64,000 nucleotides of DNA from an uncultured virus (IMG/VR IMGVR_UViG_3300010396_000044) (Duplodnaviria > Heunggongvirae > Uroviricota > Caudoviricetes): the IMG/VR virus record IMGVR_UViG_3300010396_000044; one strand, 5' to 3'. The notes below the pieces were generated by a model. That model was not told the origin of the DNA. It saw only the letters and a program-made list of their open reading frames with translations, and did no database searches. The translations under genes and the position numbers were made by a program. Of the stretch, positions 2,364-36,655 are shown piece after piece; positions within the stretch are counted from its first letter, which is position 1; each line of letters begins with the position of its first letter.

Positions 2364-2374
2364 GTCCGGGAGGG

Positions 2375-7919: not shown

Positions 7920-7920
7920 G

Positions 7921-9134: not shown

Positions 9135-9157
9135 GACGGGCTGAATCAGGAGGCCTA

Positions 9158-11398: not shown

Positions 11399-11409
11399 GC
11401 GGTAAACGG

Positions 11410-11544: not shown

Positions 11545-11605
11545 TCGACTACCTAAATTCGCGGGGTGGTTAAGCAATGAACCGTTGGCTGATCGGCCTC
11601 AGCCC

Positions 11606-11884
11606 ATGGCGCTAGAAGGAACCGGCGGGAAAGAACGCCACCCGGAAGACTACGAACGCCTACACCGTTACTGGACCCGCGGTGAGGGCCTCGGCGAATG
11701 GGCTGAGGCCGACGACCCGTGGACCGAACTATTTCACCACCTCGCGAAATTCATGAACCCTGACGAGGCGAAACGCACCGCAACCGTGTGGTTCCACGAC
11801 GTTTTCGGCTTCTACCCTGGCTCTGATCTGAATCGGGTCACGCACGGTAAGCCACCGCGGGGGAAGGTAGTCGGACCAGGATGA
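11606..11884 (+). CDS. conserved actinophage hypothetical protein
   Basis: LHRYWTRGEG..W..PWT..HLAK pattern; coupled to GT gene. Confidence 0.6.
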   Translation: MALEGTGGKERHPEDYERLHRYWTRGEGLGEWAEADDPWTELFHHLAKFMNPDEAKRTATVWFHDVFGFYPGSDLNRVTHGKPPRGKVVGPG

Positions 11885-12564: not shown

Positions 12565-12631
12565 CGGCGACCGGGTTCCGTGCTGGTACAAGCCGGAATC
12601 CGTGGCTTTGCTGAACGCTAGAGGAGGAATC

Positions 12632-12892
12632 ATGGCAACGTGGGTTCGGATGGCCATTGGTAGCGACGACGTAGACGATTTCACCTACTTGAACATGGAT
12701 CACGTGAAGCAGGCGCAAGTGACTCCCACCGTCTCCGGGCCGTCCGGGTACATGATCGAGCTAGGTGGAGAAGGGCCAGCCGACTTCGGCGCGGTGTACG
12801 GACGGTGGGACACCGCTGCGCACGCTAACGCTGCGCTTCAGCTCTTGGTGCGTGGAGTCGATTTCAGTGCGACGACCGGTGAGGCACTCTGA
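12632..12892 (+). CDS. hypothetical protein
   Basis: GAGGAGG RBS. Confidence 0.6.
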   Translation: MATWVRMAIGSDDVDDFTYLNMDHVKQAQVTPTVSGPSGYMIELGGEGPADFGAVYGRWDTAAHANAALQLLVRGVDFSATTGEAL

Positions 12893-12937
12893 TTAGGTAG
12901 ATGTTCGATCCGCAAGCCCTCGCCACAGCGGTCGCCA

Positions 12938-13513
12938 ATGGCTGAACACAGGTTTTTCGAAGGCCCAATCCCGTACGTGGCCACTGCCGCATTCCACGCG
13001 AACCGCGAACGAGCACCACACCTTGAGCAGGACATGCACCGTGACCGGCTCCACCGAACCGCGCAACTCATCCGCACCGTGCACCCCAACTCCGTAGTAG
13101 ACCTCGGCTGCGGCGACGGCGGCCTCCTATCACTCATCACCGACATCGACTCCTGGGGCTACGACTTCCAACCCTCCAACACCGCCGGCTGGGCGGAACG
13201 CGGTGTGACCGCCGAGCTCCGTGACGTGCTGCACCCCGGCGCGGATGTTCGATGGGGCGAACTAGCCGTACTAACCGAAGTACTCGAGCATGTCACCGAC
13301 CCACATGGCGTCGTTCGATGGACCGCGCGCCACGCGAAGTACGTTGTAGCGTCATCACCGCACAGCGAAACACCGCACAACCACGCAGAGGAGCACGCGT
13401 GGGCTTGGGATGTTGACGGGTACCGTGATTTGTTTTCTCCGCACTGGGAGATACTCAGCCACGACACTGTCGGCTGGTGCCAGATCGTCCTAGGACGGAG
13501 CCGTCACCTGTGA
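12938..13513 (+). CDS. class I SAM-dependent methyltransferase
   Basis: VVDLGCGDG motif I; TEVLEHV.DP. Confidence 0.9.
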   Translation: MAEHRFFEGPIPYVATAAFHANRERAPHLEQDMHRDRLHRTAQLIRTVHPNSVVDLGCGDGGLLSLITDIDSWGYDFQPSNTAGWAERGVTAELRDVLHPGADVRWGELAVLTEVLEHVTDPHGVVRWTARHAKYVVASSPHSETPHNHAEEHAWAWDVDGYRDLFSPHWEILSHDTVGWCQIVLGRSRHL

Positions 13514-14388
13514 AACGAGCTCTGATCACCGGCGCCGCTGGCATGATCGGCCGCCGCTTTTGCGAATATTTGTTTGACCAGGACTGGTTGATCACCCCGA
13601 TAGACACCAAGTCTCCATATGTTATAGACGCGCGGCAGTTTTTTCGCGAAAGCAATGATCGGTACGATCTGGTTTTGCATTGCGCCGCTCACGTCGGCGG
13701 TCGACTCGACATCGAAAACCGGGTCGCCTACATTGGCGCCTACAATGTCCAACTCGACGGCGCCATGTTCGAGTGGGCATTACGTACCCGACCGGCGCAT
13801 ATCGTGTACTGGTCAAGCTCGGCTGCCTACCCCATTGAGTACCAGACAGGGCAGATCGAAGTGTCCTTGCATGAAGATGACATCGATCTGATCAGTCCCG
13901 ATGCGGCTGATTTCACCTACGGCTGGGCTAAGCTCGTCGGTGAGCGCCTCGCAATAGAGGCACAGGCAGAAGGGCTGAAAGTCCATGTCTTCCGGCCCTT
14001 CAGCGGATGGGCAGACGACCAAGACACCTCGTACCCGATGGGAGCCTACCTTGACCGGGCACGCCGACGAGCCGACCCATTCACGGTCTGGGGAGACGGT
14101 GAACAAGTACGCGACTTCATCCACATCACCGACATCATCATCGCGACCATGGCCGCAATTGACGCAGATTACCCCGGGCCACTTAATCTCTGCACAGGTG
14201 TACCCACATCGTTTAACACCCTCGCCAAGCTGGTCACCTCAGCCGCCGGATATTCGCCTACCATCGAACACGACCGAACCAAACCAGTAGGCGTGCGCTA
14301 CCGCGTCGGCGACCCCACCGAAATGCACAAAATCTGGGTGCCGCAAGTGACACTTGAGGATGCGATCAGATCAGCTCTAGCGGAGTGA
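13510..14388 (+). CDS. NAD-dependent nucleotide-sugar epimerase/dehydratase
   Basis: ALITGAAGMIG, SSSAAY, YGWAK, WGDGEQVRDFIH. Confidence 0.92.
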   Translation: MKRALITGAAGMIGRRFCEYLFDQDWLITPIDTKSPYVIDARQFFRESNDRYDLVLHCAAHVGGRLDIENRVAYIGAYNVQLDGAMFEWALRTRPAHIVYWSSSAAYPIEYQTGQIEVSLHEDDIDLISPDAADFTYGWAKLVGERLAIEAQAEGLKVHVFRPFSGWADDQDTSYPMGAYLDRARRRADPFTVWGDGEQVRDFIHITDIIIATMAAIDADYPGPLNLCTGVPTSFNTLAKLVTSAAGYSPTIEHDRTKPVGVRYRVGDPTEMHKIWVPQVTLEDAIRSALAE

Positions 14389-14395
14389 GGTCGAC

Positions 14396-14587
14396 ATGAC
14401 AACCACCGAACTCGCCGACATCACCGACCACATCCTCACCGAAATCCGCGCCATGCTCGACCACCGCGCCCGCCAACACCGACACCGCGCCGTCACCATC
14501 ACCACCACAGCCGCCACCATCTGGGCGCTCGCCGCCTTCACCCGCCGCGTACACCAAGTCCCCACCTGGCGCACAGACAACAACTGA
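14396..14587 (+). CDS. hypothetical protein
   Basis: GAGG RBS; TGATG-coupled to HNH. Confidence 0.5.
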   Translation: MTTTELADITDHILTEIRAMLDHRARQHRHRAVTITTTAATIWALAAFTRRVHQVPTWRTDNN

Positions 14588-14889
14588 TGCCCGGCTGGCA
14601 AGGCTCCCAACGCCGCAAAACCCTCCCCACCAACTGGCGGCAACTGAGGGCCACCATCCTCAAACGGGATGGTCACCAATGCACATGGACCGTCAACGGC
14701 CACCGCTGCACAAACCCAGCCACCGACGTCGACCACCGTAACCGCCACATCCAAAGCGACGATCCCTCAAACCTGCAATCACTCTGCACCACACACCACG
14801 CACACAAAACCGCGCTAGAAGGCAACACCGAACGCTGGCGATATCGAACCAAACGACCAGCCGAACAACACCCAGGCCTCATCACATAA
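14587..14889 (+). CDS. small HNH endonuclease (terminase-associated)
   Basis: W..LR..ILKRDGHQC..C..ATDVDH..NLQSLC..HH..KT; upstream of TerS. Confidence 0.9.
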   Translation: MPGWQGSQRRKTLPTNWRQLRATILKRDGHQCTWTVNGHRCTNPATDVDHRNRHIQSDDPSNLQSLCTTHHAHKTALEGNTERWRYRTKRPAEQHPGLIT

Positions 14890-15046
14890 AACTCGCACCT
14901 ACTGCACAGCGAATTACCAGCCAGAAACCATAGGCTGAACAAACCACCCCGCTGCCCGCAGTAAGACAACACACGCGCCCATACACATCGCGCAGCACAT
15001 CATTCTGCCACCCGCGGGGAATCACCGACCCCAAAGAAAGCAGAAC

Positions 15047-16009
15047 ATGACCCATACCGGACCCTGCGCACACTGCGGCAAAACCTTCACCCGCACCAGA
15101 CCAGGCGGCCCAGCACCACGCTATTGCAGCGCCGCATGCAGATCCAAAGCAGCGCACCTCAGAACCAAAGCAGACGGTAGATACGCGGCGCGATGCGCAA
15201 CAAAACAAGCCGAACGCGTCCCCATCCGCCACGCCTGCACCTGCGTAGTATGCGGGGAACGCTTCACCACCCGAACCGCCCAAGCCAAATACTGCAAGCC
15301 GCTCTGCGCTAGCAGAGCATTCAACTCTGCCCGCAAAGTAGACGGACGCCTCAAAGAACAACGCACCCGCCGCGCGGACAAAATCAAGGCATACCAAGCC
15401 ACCTACGGACGAACCCTAGCGCCATGCGCAGCATGCGGTACCACCGTCGAACGCGGACCCAACGCTCGCCACCGCAGAACAGCATGCAGCAACCAATGCC
15501 GCAGCTACCTCAGATTCGGATGCTGGCCACACTCCCAGATCCCCGCAACACACCCAATCGTCTCCACACCAATCCCCGCAGACCATCCAGCCAGAGCGCC
15601 ACAAGTAAAGCAACCGACCATCCGATTCATGGCAGGCAGATGCCCCCACTGCGGAGACTGGTTCATCTCAGACCGCCGCATAGGCGGCTTAACAGACCGT
15701 ACATGCAGCCCCCGATGCTCAAGGGCGAACCACCGAACCATGCGAAGGGCAAGACAGCGAATAGCAACCACCGAAACTGTCTCACGATACGAGATCTATG
15801 AACGCGACAAGTGGACCTGCCACATCTGCCGGAAGAAAGTAAACCGGAACAAAACAGTCCCGCACCCCAAAGCGCCAGTACTTGATCACGTCATCCCGCT
15901 CGCGCGCGGCGGCCACCACGAACGAGCCAACCTACGAACAGCGCACTTCCTCTGCAACTCACTCAAAGGCGCTCAATCCATGGGCGAACAACTAATGCTC
16001 TTCGGCTAA
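15047..16009 (+). CDS. HNH endonuclease with multiple Zn-ribbon repeats (homing-type)
   Basis: several CxxC..YCS.xC repeats; C-terminal RDKWTCHIC..LDHVIPLARGG.H..NLRTAHFLCNSLK. Confidence 0.9.
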   Translation: MTHTGPCAHCGKTFTRTRPGGPAPRYCSAACRSKAAHLRTKADGRYAARCATKQAERVPIRHACTCVVCGERFTTRTAQAKYCKPLCASRAFNSARKVDGRLKEQRTRRADKIKAYQATYGRTLAPCAACGTTVERGPNARHRRTACSNQCRSYLRFGCWPHSQIPATHPIVSTPIPADHPARAPQVKQPTIRFMAGRCPHCGDWFISDRRIGGLTDRTCSPRCSRANHRTMRRARQRIATTETVSRYEIYERDKWTCHICRKKVNRNKTVPHPKAPVLDHVIPLARGGHHERANLRTAHFLCNSLKGAQSMGEQLMLFG

Positions 16010-19119: not shown

Positions 19120-20601
19120 GTGCTTGCCGACGTTCACACTCCCGGTTCCCCGGGCTGGTGGCTGATCCGTCTGGGTCAGCGGCTCGCCGTGGACGGTCCC
19201 CGGTTCGACACGCTCGACGCCTACTGGCGTGGTGAGCATCCGCTGCCGTTCGGGAACCGGAAGATGCGGGAGGCGTACCGCCGGTTCCAGCAGCAAGCGA
19301 AAACGAACTTCTGCAAACTGGTTGCCGAGTCGGTGTGTGAGCGGTTGAAAGTCACGGGGTTCCGCACCGGTGGGGACGGCTCCGACACCCTGGATAAGCA
19401 GGCGTGGGGCTGGTGGCAGGCCAACCATTTGGACGCGGACTCGGGTTTGGTGCACCGCGCGGCGGTGGTCATGTCCCGCGCCTATGTCATCGTCGGTGAG
19501 GACCCGGATAAGCCCGGTCAGCCGCTGGTCACCGTGGAGGACCCTCGGCAGGTCATCCACGAGTCGTCGCCCACGAACCGGCGCAGGTTGTTGGCGGCGA
19601 TGAAAACGTGGTGGGACGACATTCAGCGCCGGCAGTGCGCTGTCGTCTACCTCCCTGGGTCGTTGCACTACTACCGCTCCCAGCAGCAGTCCCAGGGGGA
19701 GGACCGGCTGGTGCAGCCGTGGGCGTCGCAGCAGTGGGAACCCGACGTCGATGAGGCCCCTGACGGTGCTGCGGTGAACCCGTTGGGGCAGGTGCCGGTG
19801 GTGCCGTTCCTGAACTGCCCCGGTCTCGGCGGGAACACTTTGGGTGAGTTCGAGGACGTGTTGCCGGTGCAGGACCGGATCAACACCGAAGTCTTGGACC
19901 GCATGGTCATCTCCGCGATGCAGGCCTATCGGCAACGGTGGGCTGTCGGTGTCGATTTGACTGATGAGAATGGGCAACCCGCTGGCGGGTTCGACCCGGG
20001 TGCTGATTTGTTGTGGAACGTCGCTGATGATTCCGCGAAGTTCGGTGAGTTCTCCCCCGTTGACCTCTCCGGTGTGTTGGCCGCGGTGGAGGCTGATGTG
20101 CAGCATTTGGCGGCGATTACTCGCACCCCGCCGCATTATTTGCTCGGGTCCATGGTCAATTTGAGTGGGGATGCCCTCGCGGCCGCGGAGACTGGTTTGA
20201 CCAGCAAAGTTGCGGAGCGTTCCCAGGAGTTCGGTGAGTCCTGGGAGATGGTGTACCAGCTCGCCGGGTTGGTGCAAGGTCATCAGGTTCCAGACGACTG
20301 CGAGGTCATCTGGCAGAACCCGCAGTTCCGCACATTGACGGAGCTGGCTGCGGCGTCGGTGCAGTTGGTGACTGCGGGGGTGCCGTGGCGTACCCGCATG
20401 GAGTTGCTCGATTTCACCCCATCTCAGATTGATCGGATGGAGACCGAGCGCACCCAGGACGCGATGATGGACGCCCTCCTCGGTCCTCAAGCGCCGGCCA
20501 CGGCGCCGCCGGGTCCTCCGGGTGGGGCGGCTGCACCGCTGTCCGCAGCAGCCCGGGCTGAGCAGCCCATCGGTTCCCGCGGCGGCACCACCGGCCAGTG
20601 A
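19120..20601 (+). CDS. portal protein (SPP1 gp6-like)
   Basis: TNFCKLV..ERL..GF, WQAN.LD, NPLG.VPVVPF, GEFE..QDRIN, NLSGDAL.AAE. Confidence 0.95.
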   Translation: MLADVHTPGSPGWWLIRLGQRLAVDGPRFDTLDAYWRGEHPLPFGNRKMREAYRRFQQQAKTNFCKLVAESVCERLKVTGFRTGGDGSDTLDKQAWGWWQANHLDADSGLVHRAAVVMSRAYVIVGEDPDKPGQPLVTVEDPRQVIHESSPTNRRRLLAAMKTWWDDIQRRQCAVVYLPGSLHYYRSQQQSQGEDRLVQPWASQQWEPDVDEAPDGAAVNPLGQVPVVPFLNCPGLGGNTLGEFEDVLPVQDRINTEVLDRMVISAMQAYRQRWAVGVDLTDENGQPAGGFDPGADLLWNVADDSAKFGEFSPVDLSGVLAAVEADVQHLAAITRTPPHYLLGSMVNLSGDALAAAETGLTSKVAERSQEFGESWEMVYQLAGLVQGHQVPDDCEVIWQNPQFRTLTELAAASVQLVTAGVPWRTRMELLDFTPSQIDRMETERTQDAMMDALLGPQAPATAPPGPPGGAAAPLSAAARAEQPIGSRGGTTGQ

Positions 20602-21443
20602 CCGCCCCCGGAACAACCGTCGCCGGGTCGGCGGCTCCTGCGGTGGTGACCGCCGCCGCGTACACGACAGCCACCCAAGCGCTGCGGCAACGGATGACGA
20701 CGCTGGCGCAAACACTGTTCGGTGCGCAGGGCTACCGAGATCAGGGCGCCGCGGCCTACGTCACGACGATGGCCCCGCTTGCTGACGCGGCGCAGCGAAC
20801 CATGGCGTCCCTGACCGACGCGTACCTCACCGCGCAGATCGCAGCAGCAACCGGGCAGCCGATCGCACCTACCGGTATCCCCGCGGCGCTCGTCACCGGA
20901 GCTGGGATACGCGGCGTCGCTCCGGCCACGGTCCTGCGCCGCCCCTACGTCCAAGTCTGGACGGACCTCTCCAAAGGCAAAACACTTCAGCAGGCCGTGA
21001 ACGCTGGCCGGGCCCGCGCCGAGTCCATCGCCGTCACCAACCTGCAACTCGCGAAAACCAAAGCCGCGCAACACGTCCTCACCCGATCACCCACGAAGGT
21101 CATCGGCTACAGGCGGGAACTCGGTTCGGACCCGCATCACTGCGCGCTGTGTCTGCTCACCTCGAGCCGGATCTACCGCAAAGCCGACCTGTTGCCCCTC
21201 CATCCAGGCTGCTCGTGTACGCCAGTGCCCGTCATTCGCGGCGAACGAATACCTGAGCTCGATCCGACACAGGTGCACGACACCATCCGCCGGGACCTCG
21301 GCGACAAGTATGTCCATGCCGGCGGCCGCGGGCTGGTGAATTACCGCCGAATCGTCATCACACACGAGCATTCGGAACTTGGCCCTGTCCTCGGGGTACG
21401 TGGCCAGCATTTCACCGGACCATCCGACATCCCAGGAGGCTGA
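20598..21443 (+). CDS. MuF-like minor head / capsid maturation protein
   Basis: GYRR..CALC..LHPGCSC; follows portal. Confidence 0.75.
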   Translation: MTAPGTTVAGSAAPAVVTAAAYTTATQALRQRMTTLAQTLFGAQGYRDQGAAAYVTTMAPLADAAQRTMASLTDAYLTAQIAAATGQPIAPTGIPAALVTGAGIRGVAPATVLRRPYVQVWTDLSKGKTLQQAVNAGRARAESIAVTNLQLAKTKAAQHVLTRSPTKVIGYRRELGSDPHHCALCLLTSSRIYRKADLLPLHPGCSCTPVPVIRGERIPELDPTQVHDTIRRDLGDKYVHAGGRGLVNYRRIVITHEHSELGPVLGVRGQHFTGPSDIPGG

Positions 21444-21447
21444 CACC

Positions 21448-21696
21448 GTGGGTAACCACAGCGCCGACCAGCGCCGGCAACTCCTCAAGCAAGGCAAAGC
21501 GCTACCCGACCCTAACGGCGGTCCGCCACGATTCCCCATCGCTGACGCTTCGGACCTCGATTCCGCGGTCCACCTCGCGAGAACACCCGAGGAACGCCGC
21601 TTCGTCTATAAGCGGGCGCAGCAGATGAACATGCTCGGGAAGATCCCGTCGAATTGGAAGTCAGATGGGACTCTTCGTGACGACAGTTCCTCCTAA
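21448..21696 (+). CDS. small head-module protein (DUF6582-like)
   Basis: AGGAGG RBS; RRQL..GKALP..FPI..DL..A..I.KRA..L..IP.W. Confidence 0.6.
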   Translation: MGNHSADQRRQLLKQGKALPDPNGGPPRFPIADASDLDSAVHLARTPEERRFVYKRAQQMNMLGKIPSNWKSDGTLRDDSSS

Positions 21697-23497: not shown

Positions 23498-23523
23498 ATT
23501 CCCCCGTGGGGAGAGGAGACAGG

Positions 23524-24558
23524 GTGCGGGTCCTCGCGATGCTGCACTTGTACTCACCGAACCATAATGCTGGCGCCGAGGTCGCCGCTCACGCTCTGCT
23601 GCGGACCTTAGTTGGTCGTGGGCATCAGGTTGTGGTGCAGTTGTCGCAGGTGCATCCGATGTTCCACACCGGCCCGTACGTGTATGACGGTGTGTCAGTG
23701 TGGCCGTACCGGGACAAGGACGACCCGCTGCGTTGGATCAACTCCCCTACCCCGCCGCAGCTGATTGTTGCGCATTTGGAGAACGCGATCCGCGCGTCAA
23801 TCCTCGGCAGCATGCATAAAATCCCCTCTGCGATTCTCATGCACAACACGTACACGAAATCGAAAGCTGATTTGCGGTGGGGTGCTGGGTTGGTGGTGTA
23901 CAACACGGAGTGGATGCGCGCGGATGTGGAGCGGTGGTGGGAGTCAAACCAGGGAACGACCCCCCCGCGGGGAATCGTGGTGCATCCTCCGATTTTCCCT
24001 GACCAGTACCGGATCACTCCCCCACCGGCTCGGGCGGGTTGCGTGACGTTGGTGAACCTTTACAAGGAGAAGGGTTCGGCAATGTTTTACGCGCTTGCGG
24101 AGCGGTTCCCGCGGCAGCGGTTCCTTGGCGTGTGCGGCGCGTACGGTAAGCAGGATGTCCGCAGCGGGTTGCCGAACGTGGAGATCGTGCAGCATGTCGC
24201 GGCGCATGAGATGCCGGCGCGGGTTTATTCGCGGACGCGGGTGCTGCTGGCGCCGTCGTCGTACGAATCGTATGGGCGGGTGGCGGTGGAGGCGGCGTGT
24301 TCGGGGATTCCGACGATCGCGCACCCGACCTCGGGTCTGGTGGAGGCGTTGGGTGAGGGTGGCACGTTCGCTGACCGGGATGACGTTGATGCGTGGGCCG
24401 GGGCGTTGCGGGGGTTGTTGACGCCGAGGGGTTGGGTGGCGGCGTCGGCTCGGGCTCGTGCGGTGGCTGACCGTTTGGACACGGCTGGGGATTTGGAGCG
24501 GTGGGCGGTCGAGGCGGAACGTCTCAGCCGCGCTGTGAGAGCTCCTGTCTTGGTGTGA
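23524..24558 (+). CDS. glycosyltransferase (GT-B / GT4-like)
   Basis: HNAGAE N-terminus; LLAPSSYESYGRVAVEAACSGIPTIA..GLVE. Confidence 0.9.
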   Translation: MRVLAMLHLYSPNHNAGAEVAAHALLRTLVGRGHQVVVQLSQVHPMFHTGPYVYDGVSVWPYRDKDDPLRWINSPTPPQLIVAHLENAIRASILGSMHKIPSAILMHNTYTKSKADLRWGAGLVVYNTEWMRADVERWWESNQGTTPPRGIVVHPPIFPDQYRITPPPARAGCVTLVNLYKEKGSAMFYALAERFPRQRFLGVCGAYGKQDVRSGLPNVEIVQHVAAHEMPARVYSRTRVLLAPSSYESYGRVAVEAACSGIPTIAHPTSGLVEALGEGGTFADRDDVDAWAGALRGLLTPRGWVAASARARAVADRLDTAGDLERWAVEAERLSRAVRAPVLV

Positions 24559-25328: not shown

Positions 25329-25877
25329 ATGAAGAAGATCCCCACTCTCTATAGGCGTGATCCTGATGATTTGCGCTGTTTGACTCGGGAGCGTCACCCA
25401 GACACATTGTGGGTGGACGAGGACTGTTCTGTCGCCACCCGCAAGTACGATGGAACGTGTCTTATGTTGGACAATGAATCCACGTGGTGGGCGCGGCGGG
25501 AAGTGAAGCCAGGAAAAACCCCGCCGCCCGGGTTCCAGGTCGCCGAGGTTGATCGTACCACCGGGAGAACAGTCGGTTGGGAACCGATTGACCAGTCACC
25601 GTTCGTTAAGGCGTGGCAAGACGCTCAACGAAACCAAGAGTCCCGATCCTTCACTCCTGGCACGTACGAGTTGATTGGCCCAAAAGTCAATGGCAACCCA
25701 GAGAAACGTGAGCGACACGAACTGATTAAACACGCCGAGGCGGAGCGCATAGACGGAGTTCCAGTGGAATATGACGACCTGCGAGATTGGCTCGCCGAGT
25801 TCCCTGGCGAGGGGATCGTGTGGCATCATCCCGATGGGCGCATGACAAAAATTAAGCGCCGCGACTTCGGTTCGTAA
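25329..25877 (+). CDS. RNA ligase, RLIG1/C12orf29 (DUF5565)-like
   Basis: ATRKYDGTC (motif I KxDG), GTYELIGPKVNGNP, EGIVWH.PDG.MTKIK; CATAAT 8 nt upstream; lower GC. Confidence 0.8.
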   Translation: MKKIPTLYRRDPDDLRCLTRERHPDTLWVDEDCSVATRKYDGTCLMLDNESTWWARREVKPGKTPPPGFQVAEVDRTTGRTVGWEPIDQSPFVKAWQDAQRNQESRSFTPGTYELIGPKVNGNPEKRERHELIKHAEAERIDGVPVEYDDLRDWLAEFPGEGIVWHHPDGRMTKIKRRDFGS

Positions 25878-27136: not shown

Positions 27137-27808
27137 GTGGCCGATTACACCAGCATCGCGCATCGTCAGGCGACGCTGATCCGCAAGGCCCTGCAAGGAT
27201 CCATTTTCATCGCGCCCTACACCGCGACCGCGGTGACCGCGATCACCACCGGCTCGGCGGCCGACATCCTCACCCTCCCCGCTGGCTATGTGGACGCGGG
27301 CATGGTCGACAAAAAGAACGCCCCCACCTGGGCGTCCAAGGTCACCAACACTGCGGTCATGACGTGGGGGGACGTGTACGCCGCCCGGCGGGACATCACC
27401 GCAGTCGACGGCTCCCTGAAGTTCACCATGCTCGAAACCAACAAAACATCCCTTCAGTTGTATTTGGGTCAGGATCTGTCGACCACGCCGCTGGACGCGA
27501 CGACTAAGGAACTGGTCATCTACCAGGCGGCCCGTCCGCAGCCTATTCCTTATCGCGTGCTGGGCATTTTCCAGGACGGCAGCGGTAGCGACGCCATCTA
27601 CATTGGGCGTTTCTACCCGCGCGCTTTCGTCACTGACATCGGTGATCAGAAATGGGATGACGATGCCGATGCTCTCGTCTACGATGTGACTTTGACGCCT
27701 GAGAACGATTCCGTGCTGGGTACGCCCGTCATTCATTACTATGCAGGACCGGGATGGCAATCGTTGTTAACCGAAGCCGGTTTTTCGACTAATCCAGGCG
27801 CCAGTTAG
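27137..27808 (+). CDS. major tail protein
   Basis: LP.GY.D.G, RRDI..L.FTMLET, YPRA.V, Y.VT; position. Confidence 0.88.
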   Translation: MADYTSIAHRQATLIRKALQGSIFIAPYTATAVTAITTGSAADILTLPAGYVDAGMVDKKNAPTWASKVTNTAVMTWGDVYAARRDITAVDGSLKFTMLETNKTSLQLYLGQDLSTTPLDATTKELVIYQAARPQPIPYRVLGIFQDGSGSDAIYIGRFYPRAFVTDIGDQKWDDDADALVYDVTLTPENDSVLGTPVIHYYAGPGWQSLLTEAGFSTNPGAS

Positions 27809-27851: not shown

Positions 27852-27916
27852 AAGGACCCCGGCGCCTGCGTCAACAGGCCCGGGGCGTGGCCGAACCTGG
27901 TGAGAGGTCCGACATG
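27852..27916 (+). promoter_or_regulatory. structured 5' leader of HNH gene (copy B)
   Basis: aligns with 7061-7127 with compensatory changes. Confidence 0.6.
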
Positions 27917-28939
27917 GATCAGGCTAGCGGTTGTGAAGTCTGTGGCAAGCCCACGGCGTGGTTTGAGCGTTGGCAACGGTATAACCGCTACTGCGGTTCG
28001 ACGTGTCGCGCCGCGGCGTATCGGCGCCGCCACGCGGCTGTGTCTGATCGGCCCGGCGAGGTGGCCTGTGAGGAATGCGGCGTCTCATACCGGATCCGGT
28101 CGTATGGTCCGGTTCCTCGTTGGTGTGCTGATTGCGCTGAGCAGCGTGGCCGGGATCGGGCTAATAGTGTTTATGAGAGACGGTCTCCGTCCCGTCGGCT
28201 GACTTGCCGGACATGCGCGGTGGAGTTCACGGCGCCTACGAAGCCTGGGGCTGCCCCCACGCGGTGCTCGCAGTGCAAGACGACGCATGATCGAGACCGT
28301 AGACGTGCTTACCGAGACAGCCATCGGAGCAGGAAGCCACCGGCTACGTGTCGGGCTGTGGTCTGTGTGGACTGTGGTGCTGAGTTTGAACGTGTGCACA
28401 GCAATGGTGTCCGGCGGCGCTGTGTTGCGTGTCGCGCTGCGCATAATATGGTGAGGCATCGGCGGTATCAACCGAACCGGGACCGGTCACCCCGGCCATG
28501 CGACATGTGCGGCGTGTTGATCACTCCGGAGCCTGTTGGGCCAGTGGCCAACTGGTGTCGCGTTTGCGCAGGGGCCAGGCAGGGACAGCAGCGGGACGAA
28601 TGGCTTAAGAAACGCCCCGAGCTGCTACGTCGCCGTTGGCAAGCGAACAAACAACGCCGCCGCGCAGCCAAGTACGCAGGCCATGTAGAACGGTTCTCTT
28701 CTCAAGAGATCTACGAGCGTGACGGCTGGGTCTGCGGTATCTGTGATCAACCTGTGGATCGGTCGCGGCGATACCCAGATCGGGATTCCGCGTCGTTGGA
28801 TCACATCGTTCCTTTGTCACGTGGCGGTAGTCACACTAGGCGCAATGTCCAACTTGCGCATCTTCGGTGCAACCTGGATAAGAGTGATCGGGTTGCCGAC
28901 CATGAGGTGGTAGCTGATGGCAACATTCCGCCTGGATGA
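27914..28939 (+). CDS. HNH endonuclease with Zn-ribbon repeats (homing-type)
   Basis: about five CxxC..CxxC repeats; RDGWVCGIC..LDHIVPLSRGG.H..NVQLAHLRCNLDK; inserted between major tail and chaperone. Confidence 0.9.
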   Translation: MDQASGCEVCGKPTAWFERWQRYNRYCGSTCRAAAYRRRHAAVSDRPGEVACEECGVSYRIRSYGPVPRWCADCAEQRGRDRANSVYERRSPSRRLTCRTCAVEFTAPTKPGAAPTRCSQCKTTHDRDRRRAYRDSHRSRKPPATCRAVVCVDCGAEFERVHSNGVRRRCVACRAAHNMVRHRRYQPNRDRSPRPCDMCGVLITPEPVGPVANWCRVCAGARQGQQRDEWLKKRPELLRRRWQANKQRRRAAKYAGHVERFSSQEIYERDGWVCGICDQPVDRSRRYPDRDSASLDHIVPLSRGGSHTRRNVQLAHLRCNLDKSDRVADHEVVADGNIPPG

Positions 28940-29231
28940 CTATATCGCGGAGTCCAAGGTTGACCCGTTCGAGTTGGATTGCGGGGATCAGGGCCGGTTT
29001 GTGTTGAATTACCCGGATGGGGACACGTTGACGCAGCTGACGGAGTGCCCGCTGAACCAGACCCGGCGGATCTTCCAGCTGTTGACGGGGGATCAGTTTG
29101 ATCAGATTTGGCCGATCGTTGCACCGTTGCCGGGGAAGGTGCTGTCCGGGGTGATCAACGATGTGATCAGTCATTTCAATTTGGGGCAGGTGCAGCAGTT
29201 GCCGGGGGGTTCGCGGGCCTCGCGGCGCTGA
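28917..29231 (+). CDS. tail assembly chaperone (short form)
   Basis: position before TMP; ends just after G-run slippery site. Confidence 0.8.
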   Translation: MATFRLDDYIAESKVDPFELDCGDQGRFVLNYPDGDTLTQLTECPLNQTRRIFQLLTGDQFDQIWPIVAPLPGKVLSGVINDVISHFNLGQVQQLPGGSRASRR

Positions 29232-29668
29232 TCAATGAGCACGGCGAGGCCATCGAATACGACCTGCAATCGTTCCTCGGTGTGGATATTCACGACTTTT
29301 TCCGCGGACACCGGCCGTGGGGGCAGTTGTACCGGTTTATTGCGCAGTTGCCTCCGCATTCGCGGTATCACGCCGCGCTGGTTGCTGATGAGGACAGTGT
29401 ACGGCGGCTGCTCTCCGACAAACCGGGCGATGGGCGGTTGTCGATGGCCGGTTGGACACCTGAACGGGACCTGCTGACCACCATCGCGGAAATATTGAAT
29501 GAGATGCACGCGACGCTGATCCAAGCCAACTCCGAGAAGGGGAAACGCCCCGCGACGGAGCGGATGCCGCGGCCGTGGACAGCGTTCGAGAAAGTAGCCG
29601 CGAAACAAGCGTACGACGAACACAAACAGCGAGTGCGGTTGTTCCTAGCCCGTAGCCGAGACGAATAG
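28917..29668 (+). CDS. tail assembly chaperone, -1 frameshift extended form
   Basis: G GGG GGT at 29204-29210 shifts into AIEYDL..G.D..R..LP..S frame. Confidence 0.75.
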
Positions 29669-29689
29669 GCGAGGGGGTGGGTAAAAGGT

Positions 29690-32600
29690 ATGGCGGATTA
29701 CAGTGTTGGTTCGGCATACCTTTGACCGGTAACTCACTGTTCTGCCTGATCTGTCGGGTTTCGGTGAGAACGTTCGTCGGCAGCTCGCTGAGGAGGATTT
29801 TTCCGCGACTGTTCCGCTTGATCCGGAGCTGAACTCCGAGGAGCTGGACGCTCGGATCGCGGAGATCAAGGCCCGGCTGGATGAGTTGTCCGGTGGCGAC
29901 GTCACGGTCGGTGTTGATGACGCTGATGCGTTGGCCGAGATTGAGGTCCTCAAGGCCGAGCTGGATGAGCTTGAGGCCAAACGCGCCACGATCTCCGCGC
30001 GGGCGGACACCGTTGAGGCCCGCGCTGACCTGGATGAGCTCAAGGCCAAGGCTGATGAGCTCGACGGCAAGACCGTCACCATCCACGCCAAAGCGGACAC
30101 CAGTGAAGCGGAAAGCGGTCTCAACGGTCTGATGGCCGCCGCTGTGGGGCTGGCACCAGCGATCATCCCCATCGCCGCCGCCGCAGCGGGTGGTTTGGGT
30201 GCTATCGGGATCGGCGCGCTCGGCGCCGTGGCCGGTATCGGGGTCCTCAAAGAGGCCTTCTCCGGGGTCGGCACGGCGATCTCGGCGGTGCAAACCGCGC
30301 AAACCCAGCAGGGGCAGAACGCCGCTTCGGCGGCGGCGCAGCAGATCTCCTCCGCGAACTCCGTCGCCAACGCCCAGGACTCGCTGCGGACCGCGGTGGA
30401 GAACGTGGCAGTGGCGCAGGAGACGGCCGCGCGGAATGTCGCCTCGGCGATGGAGCAGCAGCAAAACGCGGTACAGGCCGTGGCGGTCGCGGAAGAGACA
30501 GCCGCCCGGAACATCGCGTCGGCGATCGAGCAGCAGAAGCAAGCTGAGCAGTCCCTCACCGACGCGATCCGGTCCCAAACCCAGGCGCAGCAAGCCCTGA
30601 CTCAGGCGAGGATCGACGCGCAGAACGCGCTGATCAACTCAACGTTGTCGGTGCAGGACAACGCGCTGGCGCAACGCTCCGCGCAGTTACAGCTCGAGCA
30701 GGCGCAGCAGAACCTTGCGCAACTGTCCCCGTCAGCGACCGCGCTCCAGCGCCAGCAGGCGCAGCTGGCGGTCGATCAGGCGCAGCAGCAGATCACCGAC
30801 ACCATCGCTCAAGGCCAGCAGCTTCAACAGCAGAACACCACGCTCCAGAAGCAGGGCGTTGAGGGTTCTCAGCAGGTCGTCGCGGCGCAGAACTCGATCA
30901 CCTCCGCGAATGAGCAGGTCGCCAGTTCTCAGCAGCGGGTCGGGGACACCACCGCGGCGGTCGCCCAGGCTCAGGAAGACGCTGCCCGCAACGTCGCGGG
31001 AGCCCAACAGAAACTCGCTGATGCCACGAAGGCGGTCGCCCAGGCCCAGGAGGACGGGGCGCGGCAGATCGCGCAGTCCCAGCAGGCCGTGGTCACCGCC
31101 ACCCGCGCGCTGCAAGACGCCCAAGCATCTCAGGCCGCTCAAGCCGCCAGCGCAGCGAACGCGAACAACGCCGTCGCCGCGGCCATGGCGAAACTGTCCC
31201 CGGCCGGGCAGTCGTTCGTCAACTTCATTGTCGGGCTCAAACCCCAACTCGACCAGCTCAAGCAATCCGCATCCGATGGGGTCCTCACGGGGCTCCAGGC
31301 CGGCATCCAAGCCGTGCTACCCGATCTGCCGCTGCTCAACAGCCTCATCGCAACCATCTCCGGGGCACTGGGTGATCTCGCTAAAGACGCTGGCCAGGCG
31401 TTGGCGTCGCCTTACTGGACCGGGTTCATCTCGTTCATCCAAGGCGAAGCCGCGCCAAGTATCCAAACCTTCGGGGTCATCATCGGGAACCTGGCACACG
31501 GGTTCGCTGGGCTGCTGGAAGCCTTCAAACCTGTCTGGGATCAGATGGGCGCCGGGCTCGAGCATTTGACCGCGGACTTCGCGAACTTCGGTGCTACCGC
31601 ATCCAGCAACACCGGGTTCCAAAATTTCCTGGCCTACGTCGAAAAAGAAGGCCCCGTCGTCGTCCAGACCCTCGGTAACCTGATCCTCGCTTTCGCGCAT
31701 ATCGGGGAGGCTCTGGGGCCATTGGGCGGGGTCGTTCTGACAGTGGTCAACGATCTAGCTAAATTCGTCGCGGCTATCCCTACCCCGATTCTCACTCCAC
31801 TCGTCACCGCCCTTTACTTGGGGTATTTGGGGTGGAAATCATGGCAGATCGTCGACAACATCACGACGAGCATCGGCAAATTCGTTGAGGGTGTCCAAAC
31901 GCTGCTGACCAAACTGGGCATCCTCAACGACACCACGGCCACCGCCACCGTCGCGGTGGAAACCCAGACCGTGGCCACTGAGGAGTTGACCACGGTACAA
32001 GGCGTGCAGGCCATTGACCTGGACGCGTTAACCGTCAGCGAGACCGCGAAAACTGTCGCTGAAGGCGCCGACACCGCAGCCACCGAAGGGCTCACGGTCG
32101 CGACCGGTGCTTTGGATGTGGCGATGGACGCCAACCCCATCGGCCTCGTCATCACAGCCCTCGGCGCCCTCATCCTCGTCGTCGTCGAAGTATGGGATCA
32201 TTTCGACACGCTGAAGGCCGTTGTCGGTGACGTGTGGGGCTTCCTCGGCTCCGTTATCCAAGGCACCTATAACGACGTCATCAAACCAGTTTTCGACTTC
32301 TTCGTCGGAATCATCGATGGGCTGGTTGGCGCGTTCCAAACCGCGATCAACAACATCGGCAGCATTTGGGGCCTGCTCGGGAACATTGTTAAAGCCCCCG
32401 TCAATTTCGTTATTGACCCGATCTACGATAAGGGCATCGCCGGTCTGTGGAACGACATCGCCGGTGTTTTCGGCCTGCCGACGTTGCCGATCATCGCCAC
32501 TTTGGCGGGTGGTGGGGTGCTCTCCGGGTACGCCCCCGGCCGGGACACGGTGCCCGCCCTGTTGTCCCCCGGCGAAGGTGTGTTGGTCCCTGAGGCTGTC

Positions 32601-33488
32601 GCGGGGCTCGGCCCTGACTTCGTGTTGTGGGCCAACGAGTTCTACTCCGGTGGCCGCAGCACACCGTCCAGCCCGGGCCGGTTCGCCACGGGCGGCATCG
32701 TCGGTGACATCGCCGGCCTGTTCACCGACCCGGCCGGGACCATCGCCAACATTTTCGCCCCGACAACCAGCCAAACCAACCAAATCCCCGGCACCGGCGA
32801 ACTACACCAAGCCTTGGTGGACATCCCCGGGAAAGTCGTCAGCGCCGCCGTTGACAAGGCTAAAAGCTACGTCTCTAGTTTGGCGTCGGCAGTGACCGGC
32901 AGCATCGGCGGCGGGGTTGAACAATGGCGTCCCGTCGGGCTTGCCGCGCTCACCGCGGAAGGCCAGGACGCTGCGGCGAACATCAGCTACCTACTCGCGC
33001 AGATGACCACCGAGTCCGGTGGCAACCCGACGATCGTCAACACAACCGACAGCAACTGGGTGGCTGGTACCCCCAGCGTCGGATTGTTGCAGGTCATCGG
33101 ACCCACCTACGCGACGTACAAAGACCCACGGTTCGACAAAGGTCCTTACGAATATGGGGTGTCCGTCGACCCAATGGCGAACATCACCGCTGCGATCAAG
33201 TACACGCTGTCTGCGTACGGTTCTCTGTCGTCGGTGTGGGGGCAGGGTCACGGCTACGACAACGGCGGATGGCTGCCACCGGGCCTGACGATGGCCTACA
33301 ACAACACCCGGACCCCGGAAGCGGTCCTCACCGGGTCGCAGTGGTCGACGCTGATGAACCGCACCCAGGGCGGCGACTCGGGGCGGCCGATCACCGTCAA
33401 CGTGTACCCCCGCGCTGACCATTCCGAGGCGGAGATCGCTGACATGGTGTCCCGCCAGTTGTCGATCTCGATGCGGACCCACCGTTGA
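29690..33488 (+). CDS. tape measure protein with C-terminal lytic transglycosylase; 5' end interrupted by 13-nt gap
   Basis: MADYSVGSAYL|TVLPDLSGFG N-terminus; Ala/Gln coiled coil; GGG..GYAPG.D.VPALLSPGE; ESGGNP..GLLQ SLT. Confidence 0.9.
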
Positions 33489-35887: not shown

Positions 35888-36655
35888 ATGACCAGGGAAG
35901 ACAGCGACTTCTACACCTGCGTGAACTGCAAGGAACGTCGCACCGCTGACGAATTGAGATATCCGGGTGTGACGAAAGCGGCCCCCCGCATGGTATGTCG
36001 GCAATGCCGACTGAATAACCCTGACCAAGGGTGGTGCAACGGACATCGTACATTCCATCCGTTGAATCATTTTTACAAGAATGTTCGAAGGGTCGACGGA
36101 CACACCGAGAGCTGCCGCGCCGTTTTAGCCGATCAGCAATGGGCAACACGTCACAAAACAACTATGCAACTTCGATATCGGACGTGCATGGCGTGCAATC
36201 AGGAAAGACCAGTCTCATCATTCAAGGGAACCAGACACAAGCGGCATGTCTGTGTACCGTGCGCCGACAGTCACCCAGATCAATCATGGTGCGCCGGTTG
36301 CAAGGATTGGGCCCTCCTTGAGTGGTTTGACATCTCTTCCAGAGAGCGCCCAATGTCTTGGTGTGCTTTATGCTGGGCGCTTCGAACTCACGGTACTACC
36401 CTGGCCGCCGTTCTAGAGCTACAGGAATCACCTACCCCCGCGTGCGCAGTTTGCGGGCTAACGGAGCGTCGCAAACTGTGCGTTGATCACGACCATCGAT
36501 GTTGTCCTGATGACAGGTCGTGCGGGCAATGCGTACGGGGACTGTTATGCGTGACATGTAACCGTATCGAGGGATTACTAGCGACGCCAGTTAAAGCGAT
36601 TCACATGGCTGCATATATGGCTAGAGCCGACATGCGATTGTCTCAAAAGGAGTAA
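35888..36655 (+). CDS. endonuclease VII-type homing nuclease
   Basis: Q..CAVC..LCVDHDH.CC..SCG.CVRGLLC..CN; repeated CxxC domains; low GC. Confidence 0.9.
   Translation: MTREDSDFYTCVNCKERRTADELRYPGVTKAAPRMVCRQCRLNNPDQGWCNGHRTFHPLNHFYKNVRRVDGHTESCRAVLADQQWATRHKTTMQLRYRTCMACNQERPVSSFKGTRHKRHVCVPCADSHPDQSWCAGCKDWALLEWFDISSRERPMSWCALCWALRTHGTTLAAVLELQESPTPACAVCGLTERRKLCVDHDHRCCPDDRSCGQCVRGLLCVTCNRIEGLLATPVKAIHMAAYMARADMRLSQKE

What the first reader, a model, noticed from the sequence alone, without database searches (positions are those of the whole stretch)
29690..29746. Tape-measure gene split by a 13-nt gap: candidate programmed ribosomal bypass
Seen: ATG 29690 reads MADYSVGSAYL then stops (TAC CTT TGA CCGG TAA CTC ACT GTT CTG CCT). 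The long TMP frame opens right after TAA 29730-32 as LTVLPDLSGFGENVRRQL and has no ATG/GTG/TTG until 29886. Its first 51 codons carry the same ELDARIAEIKARLDEL repeat seen downstream, so they look coding. Skipping 13 nt from Leu CTT to Leu CTC (same tRNA; wobble to Watson-Crick) gives SVGSAYLTVLPDLSGF, a typical actinophage TMP start. The gap has a stop in both relevant frames and sits inside a 12-bp stem (29692-705 with 29735-746). Known precedent: T4 gene 60 matched-codon bypassing; a short UUA-flanked bypass was proposed in Streptomyces phage phiHau3 (recalled, not checked). Inference: recoding gates an essential tail gene, here without UUA.
Basis: partly seen in the sequence, partly recalled or inferred. 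Interest (0 to 1): 0.9.

Follow-up and report, generated by a model that had tools for sequence, protein, structure and literature searches.

The report
Ribosome-hop gap in phage tape-measure gene
An essential tail-length gene of an uncultured soil actinophage is broken after codon 11 by 13 real extra bases, a distant relative has an 11-base break at the same codon, and ribosomes most likely hop over it, a very rare way of decoding.

Summary
ATG 29690 encodes MADYSVGSAYL and stops at TGA 29723. The tape-measure (TMP) frame opens after TAA 29730-32. Relatives read ...AYL-TVLP... without a break, so the window carries 13 extra bases.

The insert is real DNA. Contigs from three studies carry it unchanged, including a strain with 9 substitutions at about 50x depth.

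A second phage (L004, a complete 95.8-kb genome with terminal repeats) has an 11-base insert at the same codon. It has the same design: CTT, TGA, a short gap, a stop in the landing frame, then CTC. Trees reject the two as sisters.

A TMP 94% identical to a gapped L004-type variant is uninterrupted and reads AYL-SVLP, the junction predicted for a hop in L004.

Only the two gapped phages have an HNH endonuclease gene between the tail tube and chaperone genes (2 of 2 against 0 of 6).

Best reading (about 0.65): peptidyl-tRNA-Leu hops from CUU to CUC at an RF2-like shifty stop, probably tolerating an endonuclease-immunity insert as in T4 gene 60/MobA. No protein evidence exists. The stronger 5' hairpin also occurs in ungapped relatives. 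This scan has noted similar endonuclease-linked gaps in other phage genes.

The parts
27137..27808 (+). Tail tube protein gene (223 aa)
   Evidence: Pfam PF25681 Phage_TTP_17, E 6.6e-13. It is 74% identical to L004 1722-2405.
27887..28939 (+). Free-standing HNH endonuclease gene (350 aa) with Cys-rich N-terminal repeats, inserted between the tail tube and chaperone G genes
   Evidence: Pfam PF01844 HNH, E 3.8e-10. It is 55% identical to the HNH at the same place in L004 (2481-3221). It is absent from that intergenic space in 6 of 6 distinct ungapped relatives.
28917..29231 (+). Tail assembly chaperone G (104 aa); slippery heptamer GGGGGGT at 29204-29210
   Evidence: 42% identical to L004 3202-3516. 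L004 has GGGGGGA at 3489-3495.
29211..29668 (+). T part of the G-T chaperone in the -1 frame (ORF 29108-29668), ending 22 nt before the TMP start
   Evidence: ORF list. tblastn hits to the T region of 9 of 12 related loci (7 distinct phages), 38-52% identical.
29671..29681 (+). Shine-Dalgarno-like GAGGGGGTGGG of the TMP start
   Evidence: Read from the sequence. Purine-rich counterparts lie upstream of the start codons of all relatives.
29684..29723 (+). 5' hairpin. The outer stem pairs AAAGGUAUG (29684-92, includes the start codon) with CAUACCUUU (29715-23, includes take-off CUU). The inner stem pairs 29694-29700 with 29707-29713.
   Evidence: -22.3 kcal/mol, z -5.9. L004 has the same register with a G-C to A-U double change. 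Analogous hairpins also occur in ungapped relatives, so it is not specific to the gap.
29690..29722 (+). ORF1: the first 11 codons of the TMP (MADYSVGSAYL); take-off codon CTT at 29720-22
   Evidence: It matches the N-termini of P0002-P0007 and of 18 family representatives.
29723..29732 (+). Coding gap of 10 nt (TGACCGGTAA). TGA is in the ORF1 frame directly after the take-off codon. TAA is in the TMP frame directly before the landing codon.
   Evidence: It is unchanged in contigs of three studies.
29733..29735 (+). Landing codon CTC (Leu), the first CTN triplet in any frame after the take-off codon
   Evidence: Read from the sequence. L004 has the same codon in the same role at 4001.
29736..33488 (+). 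Rest of the tape measure protein (resume codon ACT), with a C-terminal SLT-like lysozyme region; stop at 33486-88
   Evidence: Translation. 65-66% identical to P0002 and P0003. Relatives carry PF01464 SLT. Strain X5 has 2 synonymous changes and 1 Ser-to-Thr change within 29733-29885.

Best explanation
The tape-measure gene carries a short non-coding insert that translating ribosomes bypass.

Proposed steps:
1. Translation starts at ATG 29690, the orthologous TMP start with its Shine-Dalgarno sequence.
2. After 11 codons, peptidyl-tRNA-Leu sits on the rare codon CUU with UGA in the A site. This is the same CUU-UGA(C) shifty stop that release factor 2 genes use.
3. The tRNA unpairs, the mRNA slides 13 nt (11 nt in the second phage), and the same tRNA re-pairs with CUC, the first cognate triplet downstream.
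4. Decoding resumes at ACT 29736 and gives one TMP whose N-terminus joins ...SAYL to TVLP... as in uninterrupted relatives.

The two stops (one after take-off, one just before landing) make any plain +1 or -1 shift unproductive.

Refolding of the 5' hairpin behind the ribosome may help pull the mRNA forward. This step is inferred.

The insert most likely exists because it disrupts the target of the HNH endonuclease encoded 0.8 kb upstream, as the gene 60 insert does for MobA in T4. This step is also inferred and stands at about 0.45 on its own.

Low efficiency would suffice, because a virion needs only a few TMP copies.
For: (1) Homology fixes the junction. P0002-P0007 and 5 distinct close-family loci read AY/FL-[TQ][VI]LP without a break. 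All 18 family representatives whose match begins at profile position 1-3 have a 9-27-aa leader; the motif is read from their first 60 residues.

(2) Second instance. L004 is a complete 95,770-bp genome with terminal repeats. It reads ATG..GCA TAT CTT TGA AG TAG CTC TCT GTG: same codon, same CTT+TGA, same stop+CTC. The displacement is 11 nt and the frame change is different.

(3) The two are not sisters.
- In the TMP tree the window groups with intact P0002/P0003 (100/100) and L004 with intact L011/P0004/P0005 (95/96). The AU test gives p 2.6e-59.
- For the G+T genes the AU test gives p 2.6e-4; for five upstream genes p 0.004.

(4) Ungapped near-twin. P0194 is 94% identical overall to gapped-type P0189, with 6 differences in the first 540 aligned residues. 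It reads MPSYNVGSAYLSVLPDM..., the predicted L004 hop product with a single Leu.

(5) The insert is real and persistent. It is in contigs from three studies dated 2017-2021, including a variant strain in which 7 of the 8 listed substitutions are synonymous (codon positions worked out by me). Truncated calls occur on 8 window-type contigs and 4 L004-type contigs.

(6) Codon choice. CTT is 5.8% of Leu codons and CTC is 30.4%. Both phages use CTT before the gap and CTC after it.

(7) The window has no ATG/GTG/TTG for 51 codons after the gap.

(8) Precedents.
- 7-10-nt gaps in phiHau3-type terminase genes, with a junction peptide found by mass spectrometry in E. coli; an added gap stop raised recoding 2.25-fold (PMC10732093, section 3.4 and passages).
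- The RF2 CUU_U/UGA(C) shift site (PMC5009743 passages).
- Pairing of exiting mRNA as the forward driver in gene 60 (bioRxiv 10.1101/2024.12.09.627546 passages).

(9) HNH link. The gene is present in 2 of 2 gapped and 0 of 6 distinct ungapped loci. For T4, the insert blocks MobA self-nicking (bioRxiv 10.1101/2022.08.31.505936, section 12).
Against: - There is no protein, ribosome-profiling or RNA evidence.
- Only two lineages carry the gap. Two pattern scans of viral contigs and one of genomes, plus 20 further TMP loci, found no third.
- The break lies only 11 codons into the gene, so a slightly shortened TMP made from a downstream start is conceivable. L004 has GTG 4007 and ATG 4019 just after the gap.
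- A gene-60-type nascent-peptide signal cannot exist with an 11-residue chain.
- The 5' hairpin is also found in ungapped relatives (L008 z -5.7, L003 -3.9, L011 -2.5). It is therefore not evidence for bypassing in itself.
- No 3' structure is shared by the two instances.
- The HNH link rests on n = 2. The genes between the HNH gene and the gap do not share the HNH gene's distribution, which argues against one contiguous mobile cassette.
- The host and its tRNA-Leu set are unknown. Neither the window nor G001 encodes a tRNA.
Confidence: 0.65

Rival explanations
1. The 11-codon ORF is only an upstream mini-ORF. The TMP is made without its first 11-13 residues, by re-initiation or independent initiation downstream of the gap (GTG 4007 or ATG 4019 in L004; CTG 29742 or TTG 29886 in the window). 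The insert is a tolerated scar, for instance an endonuclease-immunity insert.
For: The break is very near the 5' end. L004-type genes have GTG and ATG 14 and 26 nt after the TGA, and gene callers used them. Terminating ribosomes are close to these codons.
Against: The window type has no ATG/GTG/TTG for 51 codons after the gap, and there is no SD-like sequence before CTG 29742. Starting at TTG 29886 would remove 51 conserved residues, which strain X5 and the relatives show to be under coding constraint. ORF1 keeps the family motif DY..G.AYL in both lineages. The duplicated Leu codon (CTT before, CTC after) and the stop placed just before CTC have no role in this model.
Confidence: 0.2
2. The gene is broken. 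These are defective or helper-dependent phage genomes, or recently inactivated alleles that sweep along with a selfish HNH gene.
For: A frame-breaking insert in an essential gene is what a lesion looks like. An uninterrupted allele exists in a near-identical strain (P0194).
Against: Two non-sister lineages have it at the same codon with the same codon design. It recurs in assemblies from several studies and years, and in diverged strains (96.7-99.9% TMP identity) under purifying selection. G001 is a complete genome with terminal repeats. The rest of the 1250-codon frame is intact.
Confidence: 0.06
3. The extra bases are removed or neutralised at the RNA level (splicing, cleavage and ligation, editing) or by transcriptional slippage, not by the ribosome.
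For: The window encodes an RNA-ligase-like protein (25329-25877, PF17720, E 3.6e-13).
Against: That gene is absent from the complete genome of the second gapped phage. Inserts of 11-13 nt are far too short for self-splicing introns. There is no homopolymer run for slippage. There is no Rfam match in 29000-30200.
Confidence: 0.03
4. Assembly or sequencing artefact.
For: The source is a metagenome contig.
Against: Independent Logan assemblies from three studies contain the same 13 nt with 0 gaps. Five distinct cluster members on 8 contigs share the truncated call. A second phage has its own version.
Confidence: 0.01

Closest known systems
Phage T4 gene 60 translational bypass with the MobA HNH homing-endonuclease element (PMC5009743 passages; bioRxiv 10.1101/2022.08.31.505936, abstract and section 12)
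   Same: An essential phage gene is interrupted by a non-coding insert. A stop codon follows the take-off codon directly. Take-off and landing codons are read by one tRNA. An RNA hairpin lies 5' of the site. An HNH endonuclease gene lies upstream and is present only where the insert is present.
   Different: The gap is 8-10 nt, not 50 nt. The pair is Leu CUU to CUC instead of Gly GGA to GGA. The site is at codon 11, so the long nascent-peptide signal is impossible. There is no take-off stem-loop in the gap. The HNH gene lies 0.8 kb away with two chaperone genes in between. There is no sequence relationship and the gene is different (TMP, not topoisomerase).
Short coding gaps in the large terminase of Streptomyces phage phiHau3 and of the StrepC.1 and S. 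catenulae prophages (PMC10732093, section 3.4 and passages; PMC5009743)
   Same: Actinophage. The gaps are 7-10 nt and lie in an essential late gene at a conserved protein junction. A slow-to-decode A-site codon is present and local RNA structure is predicted. Bypassing was shown by a junction peptide in E. coli. An added stop in the gap raised efficiency.
   Different: There the trigger is the rare sense codon UUA; here it is a UGA stop after CUU. The gene is different. No endonuclease link is mentioned in that paper ('HNH' occurs 0 times in its main text).
Release factor 2 (prfB) autoregulatory +1 frameshift site CUU_U with UGA(C) (PMC5009743 passages)
   Same: The shifty-stop motif is identical: CUU UGA C in the window and CUU UGA A in L004. 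Peptidyl-tRNA-Leu unpairs from CUU while a poorly terminated UGA waits in the A site.
   Different: In RF2 the tRNA re-pairs on the overlapping UUU, helped by an SD 3 nt upstream. Here a +1 shift runs into TAA 29730 after two codons, and in L004 it enters the wrong frame. Re-pairing must therefore be at a non-overlapping codon. No SD-like element lies just upstream.
Stop-hops in synthetic E. coli constructs, and the mitochondrial 'byps' of Magnusiomyces capitatus (as described in PMC5009743 and in bioRxiv 10.1101/2024.12.09.627546)
   Same: Short-distance hopping of peptidyl-tRNA over a stop or an unused codon between matched codons, without elaborate signals.
   Different: Stop-hops are low-level laboratory events in which 9 nt specify one residue. 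Byps are 27-55 nt (recalled) in mitochondria with relaxed decoding. Here 16 or 14 nt specify one Leu in a natural bacterial-virus gene.

Membership tests
Programmed translational bypassing (functional class) | Two open frames, separated by a stop-containing gap, together encode one protein that is continuous in homologues | tested here: met
Programmed translational bypassing (functional class) | Take-off and landing codons are readable by the same tRNA, and the landing codon is the first such triplet downstream | tested here: met
   CTT to CTC in both phages, with no other CTN triplet in either gap. That one tRNA-Leu(GAG) reads both codons is general knowledge. The host tRNA set was not testable.
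Programmed translational bypassing (functional class) | A stop or slow-to-decode codon lies in the A site at take-off | tested here: met
   TGA follows CTT directly in both phages.
Programmed translational bypassing (functional class) | The gap and its design are conserved in diverged relatives (selection) | tested here: met
   Two non-sister lineages. Several strains per lineage. Only two lineages in all.
Programmed translational bypassing (functional class) | A single polypeptide spanning the gap is demonstrated | not testable with these tools
   Needs mass spectrometry or a reporter assay.
T4 gene 60 / MobA bypass cassette (homologous family) | A 50-nt gap with a take-off stem-loop, an internal mini-SD and a nascent-peptide signal, in the topoisomerase subunit gene | tested here: not met
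   The gap is 8-10 nt, the chain is 11 residues and the gene is the TMP. This is not a member; it resembles the cassette in logic only.
T4 gene 60 / MobA bypass cassette (homologous family) | The insert protects the phage's own DNA from the linked HNH endonuclease | not testable with these tools
   Only co-occurrence was shown: 2 of 2 against 0 of 6.
phiHau3-type UUA-triggered terminase bypass | The rare UUA codon starts the gap; the gene is the terminase | tested here: not met
   The gap starts with TGA, and neither gap contains TTA.
Free-standing HNH homing endonuclease | An HNH catalytic domain in an intact ORF | tested here: met
   PF01844, E 3.8e-10 (window) and 1.9e-6 (L004), both above the curated cut-off.
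Free-standing HNH homing endonuclease | Patchy presence between conserved genes in otherwise syntenic relatives | tested here: met
   The gene is absent from 6 of 6 distinct ungapped loci, where tail tube and G lie 3-45 nt apart in the 5 loci in which G was found; in L007 the 488 nt before T leave no room for it. HNH content also differs between the window and G001.
Free-standing HNH homing endonuclease | Cleaves the insert-free allele and drives its own spread | not testable with these tools
   Needs a cleavage assay or mixed infection.

The most novel reading that the evidence does not exclude
A two-part selfish system spreads among about 95-kb soil actinophages. One part is a free-standing HNH endonuclease. 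The other is a separate 11-13-nt immunity insert that it imposes on the conserved 5' end of the tape-measure gene. The phage survives because the insert is built as a minimal bypass element: an RF2-type CUU-UGA take-off, a guard stop and a CUC landing codon. This element co-opts a pre-existing hairpin that sequesters the start region as the exit-side driver of mRNA sliding. TMP output, and so tail assembly, would then depend on host RF2 activity. The gapped and ungapped alleles are polymorphic among near-identical strains.
Probability: 0.33. Interest if true: 0.85.

Novelty: new variant of a known kind. Interest (0 to 1): 0.72.

Why it matters
Natural programmed bypassing is known from very few systems:
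- T4 gene 60 and its homologues
- the phiHau3-type terminases
- one yeast mitochondrion

A minimal natural element would show what a ribosome really needs in order to hop. This one has an 8-10-nt gap, no long nascent peptide and a take-off site identical to the RF2 shifty stop. It would also be easy to test in reporters.

The link to an HNH gene supports the idea that homing endonucleases repeatedly force such recoding on essential phage genes.

In practice, gene callers truncate these genes. P0001 lost 62 codons, so such sites are systematically mis-annotated in viromes.

Tried and rejected
- **INPHARED phages.** No match to 29300-30300 (megablast), to 28900-30300 (blastn) or to the first 200 TMP residues (tblastn).
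- **Own genome.** No whole genome is held for the window.
- **Related loci.** A single-protein scan of viral contigs found nothing. A scan of genome contigs with the TMP alignment found nothing. The exact 39-nt stretch is not in viral contigs.
- **Pattern scans for more instances.**
  - CTTTGA..TAR CTC..GTN CTN CC gave 92 stretches, and only the L004 contig is a TMP start.
  - DY..G.AYL+stop gave 17 stretches in genome contigs, none a TMP, and 10 in viral contigs, again only the L004 contig.
  - Twenty further TMP loci showed no split start; most begin with an ordinary start codon and leader motif, and L150 has a different N-terminus.
- **HNH relatives.** Of the other HNH relatives in viral contigs, L136 stops before the TMP start. 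L137-L142 share only the catalytic domain and I did not examine their surroundings.
- **RNA runs.** No RNA holder is listed for the stretch.
- **RNA-ligase idea.** Rejected, because the gene is absent from G001.
- **Rfam.** No match.
Not the best fold once the leader is included, and not conserved.
- **5' hairpin as a bypass-specific signal.** My own idea, weakened because ungapped relatives have analogous hairpins.
- **A second split gene.** The suspected one at 20598-21696 is two ordinary genes.
- **Phage tRNA.** None in the window or in G001.
- **Earlier scan notes.** Searches by sequence found nothing for this TMP or this HNH.
Full report
**Observation.**

The window reads ATG(29690) GCG GAT TAC AGT GTT GGT TCG GCA TAC CTT TGA CCGG TAA CTC ACT GTT CTG CCT. 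The first frame gives MADYSVGSAYL and stops. The frame one base further on is closed by TAA 29730-32, then stays open for 1251 codons to 33488. Its first ATG/GTG/TTG is TTG 29886, which is where the public gene call P0001 (1200 aa) begins.

The gene is a tape measure protein (TMP) by position and by relatives:
- It follows the tail tube gene (PF25681), chaperone G and the -1-frame T ORF.
- G has a GGGGGGT slippery site at 29204-10.
- Relatives carry an SLT lysozyme domain near the C-terminus.

**What kind of phage this is.**

- TerL is 64% identical to that of Streptomyces phage Samy, and all 2042 matching records are phages. By the first word of the organism name, the ten commonest groups, which together hold about 2020 of them, are actinobacterial.
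- The window also encodes WhiB and an Rv2525c-like hydrolase.
- It is syntenic with G001, a complete 95,770-bp IMG/VR genome with terminal repeats (TerL 80%, capsid 80%).
- The runs that hold the stretch are soil metagenomes.

**The insert is extra relative to homologues, and it is real.**

A search with the first 200 residues found 32 proteins. The six close ones (P0002-P0007; 39-65% identical in that part) all start M/V-(A)DY[SN][VA]G[SQ]AYL[TQ][VI]LP... without a break. So do five distinct close-family DNA loci: L001, L002, L003 (the same as L009 and L010), L008 and L011. Their Leu codons are CTT, TTG, TTA, CTC and CTC. The more distant intact L007 reads GYRAGSAFIQVSP at this place.

A profile search of 1.84 billion representatives found 1743 family members. 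Among the 150 listed, all 18 whose match begins at profile position 1-3 have a 9-27-residue leader. Their first 60 residues show the G.A[YF][LI].V.P motif or a variant of it. The window therefore has 13 additional bases inside a conserved motif.

Logan contigs assembled independently from runs of three studies contain them:

| Run | Status | Cover | Differences |
|---|---|---|---|
| X1 | possible source | whole stretch | 0 |
| X3 | 2019, another study | 29405-30079 | 0 differences, 0 gaps |
| X5 | 2021, another study, depth 49.5 | 29400-30001 | 9 substitutions, 0 gaps |

Of the 8 substitutions listed for X5, 7 are synonymous in the T or TMP frame and one is Ser to Thr (my reading of codon positions). 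Three of them lie in 29733-29885, so that stretch is under coding constraint.

All five full-length members of P0001's 90% cluster, on 8 contigs, are the same truncated 1200-aa call. They are 96.7-99.9% identical.

**A second instance.**

L004 is part of G001. It reads ATG CCA GAC TAC AAT GTA GGT TCG GCA TAT CTT TGA AG TAG CTC TCT GTG CTT CCC. That gives MPDYNVGSAYL, a stop, and then, after TAG, LSVLPDMSTFG...

The design is the same as in the window:
- a rare CTT followed at once by TGA
- a short gap (8 nt here, 10 nt in the window)
- a stop in the landing frame directly before CTC

The displacement is 11 nt rather than 13, so the frame change differs (-1/+2 against +1). If each insert is placed after the first CT, they read TTGA-CCGG-TAACT and TTGA-AG-TAGCT, alike at both ends.

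In the window's genes CTT is 5.8% of Leu codons and CTC is 30.4%. Given a Leu codon on each side, drawing CTT before and CTC after in both phages has a chance of roughly 3e-4 (my arithmetic). In both phages CTC is the first CTN triplet in any frame after take-off.

**The two are not sisters.**

- In a tree of 14 TMPs the window groups with intact P0002/P0003 (100/100), and L004 with intact L011/P0004/P0005 (95/96). The tree that holds the two gapped genes together is rejected (AU p 2.6e-59).
- The same holds for five upstream genes (p 0.004).
- It also holds for G+T, the genes between the HNH gene and the gap (p 2.6e-4). There L004 is sister to intact L001 (97/93).

So the insert was either gained twice, or transferred, or lost about five times. 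In every case it has been kept with its design intact.

**An ungapped twin.**

The 90% cluster of the L004 TMP holds four gapped-type calls: two of 1299 aa from GTG 4007 and two of 1295 aa from ATG 4019, on 4 contigs. It also holds P0194, which begins MPSYNVGSAYLSVLPDMSTFG.... P0194 is 94% identical to gapped-type P0189, with 6 differences in the first 540 aligned residues. Two things follow. The junction predicted for a CTT-to-CTC hop in L004 (one Leu, then SVLP) is what the uninterrupted allele encodes. And gain or loss of the insert is recent within that lineage.

**The endonuclease.**

Between the tail tube and G genes the window has a 350-aa HNH endonuclease ORF (PF01844, E 3.8e-10). L004 has a 246-aa one in the same place (E 1.9e-6), 55% identical.

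In 5 of the 6 distinct ungapped loci (L001, L002, L003, L008, L011) the tail tube gene is followed by G after 3-45 nt. In L007 the 488 nt before T leave no room for the gene. tblastn with the HNH protein hits none of the six. That makes 2 of 2 against 0 of 6. The numbers are small, and the closest intact relatives of the window (P0002, P0003) and P0194 could not be checked because their DNA was out of reach.

These phages carry several variable nuclease genes.

In T4 the gene 60 insert prevents self-nicking by the adjacent HNH endonuclease MobA (preprint 10.1101/2022.08.31.505936, abstract and section 12; PMC5009743 passage). The same logic would explain why the gap and the HNH gene travel together here. 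It would hold even though the genes between them have their own history, which argues against one contiguous cassette.

**Mechanism.**

CUU UGA C is the RF2 shifty stop. The review describes the highly conserved CUU_U shift site and notes that a C after the UGA disfavours termination (PMC5009743 passages).

Here an RF2-like +1 shift is useless. In the window it meets TAA after two codons. In L004 it enters a frame other than the TMP frame. The only route common to both phages is re-pairing of peptidyl-tRNA-Leu on the non-overlapping CUC.

One tRNA-Leu(GAG) would read CUU by wobble and CUC by Watson-Crick pairing. This is general knowledge. The host is unknown and neither phage encodes a tRNA.

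Short gaps of 7-10 nt are bypassed in phiHau3-type terminase genes. A junction peptide was found by mass spectrometry in E. coli, and a stop added in the gap raised recoding 2.25-fold (PMC10732093, section 3.4 and passages).

**RNA structure.**

With the leader included, both gapped loci fold into one long hairpin. Its 5' arm holds the start codon, and its 3' arm ends with the take-off codon plus the U of UGA.
- Window: AAAGGUAUG pairs with CAUACCUUU, plus an inner 7-bp stem.
- L004: AAAGAUAUGCC pairs with GGCAUAUCUUU.
- A G-C to A-U double change keeps the pairing.
- z-scores are -5.9 and -3.4.

At take-off the 3' arm lies inside the ribosome. After a slide of 11-13 nt most of it would have emerged. 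Refolding could therefore pull the mRNA forward, as proposed for gene 60 (preprint 10.1101/2024.12.09.627546, abstract and passages). This is inference.

Ungapped relatives have analogous hairpins that pair the Shine-Dalgarno region with the same A-Y/F-L codons (L008 z -5.7, L003 -3.9, L011 -2.5, L002 -1.9, L001 -1.4, L007 -0.3). The hairpin is thus an older feature of the TMP start, probably translational control, and not evidence for bypassing.

**Rivals.**

- **Downstream initiation.** This would give a shortened TMP and is the main rival (0.2). It is plausible for L004, which has GTG and ATG just after the gap. It is poor for the window, which has no standard start for 51 codons.
- **A dead gene (0.06).** This does not fit recurrence over years, strains and lineages.
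- **RNA-level repair (0.03).** The only hint, an RNA-ligase-like gene, is absent from G001.
- **Artefact.** Excluded.

**Novelty.**

I found no paper that links bypassing with a tape measure gene. The search 'tape measure' + 'ribosomal bypass' gave 2 papers, neither about such a case. PMC10732093 has 0 occurrences of 'tape measure' and of 'HNH' in its main text.

This scan has noted endonuclease-linked short gaps in other phage genes on other DNA, including soil actinophage neck, portal and dnaE genes. Those are unchecked AI notes, and none concerns this TMP or this HNH.

I file this as a new variant of a known kind. It works like gene 60 and phiHau3 but is not a member of either family.

Noticed in passing
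P0194 residues about 1220-1587 (relative of the L004 TMP; protein only): The ungapped TMP allele carries a 365-residue insertion in its SLT domain. The insertion starts with Cys after ...YIKARYG and ends ...LTGN before Ser. It holds two LAGLIDADG-like motifs (LLGWVCGDGS, LRGVIGAEGH), so it looks like an intein with a homing endonuclease. This TMP gene therefore hosts a second kind of selfish element.
   Followed up: partly
window 29204-29210; L004 3489-3495: A canonical -1 frameshift slippery heptamer (GGGGGGT; GGGGGGA in L004) near the end of chaperone G leads into the T frame. Two recoding events would then lie within 520 nt.
   Followed up: partly
window 25329-25877: An ORF with an RNA ligase 1 (PF17720) domain, E 3.6e-13, sits inside the head-tail connector module. 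It is absent from G001 and from the relatives whose loci cover that place.
   Followed up: partly
window 7125-7919, 15047-16009, 35888-36655; G001 10555-11244: More nuclease genes: NUMOD4+HNH_3; an HNH next to the small terminase (a 26% identical paralogue of the tail HNH); and an endonuclease VII gene among the tail genes (also in G001). G001 has an extra HNH between the capsid and glycosyltransferase genes that the window lacks.
   Followed up: partly
window 1-14900 against G001 84689-95182 and 1251-1547: The window runs across what is the terminal-repeat junction in G001. The cation-efflux, NlpC/P60, methyltransferase and epimerase genes at its left end are therefore phage genes of the right genome end, not host DNA.
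   Followed up: partly
window 23506-24558: A GT4 glycosyltransferase gene lies directly after the major capsid gene and is conserved in G001 (60% identity).
   Followed up: no
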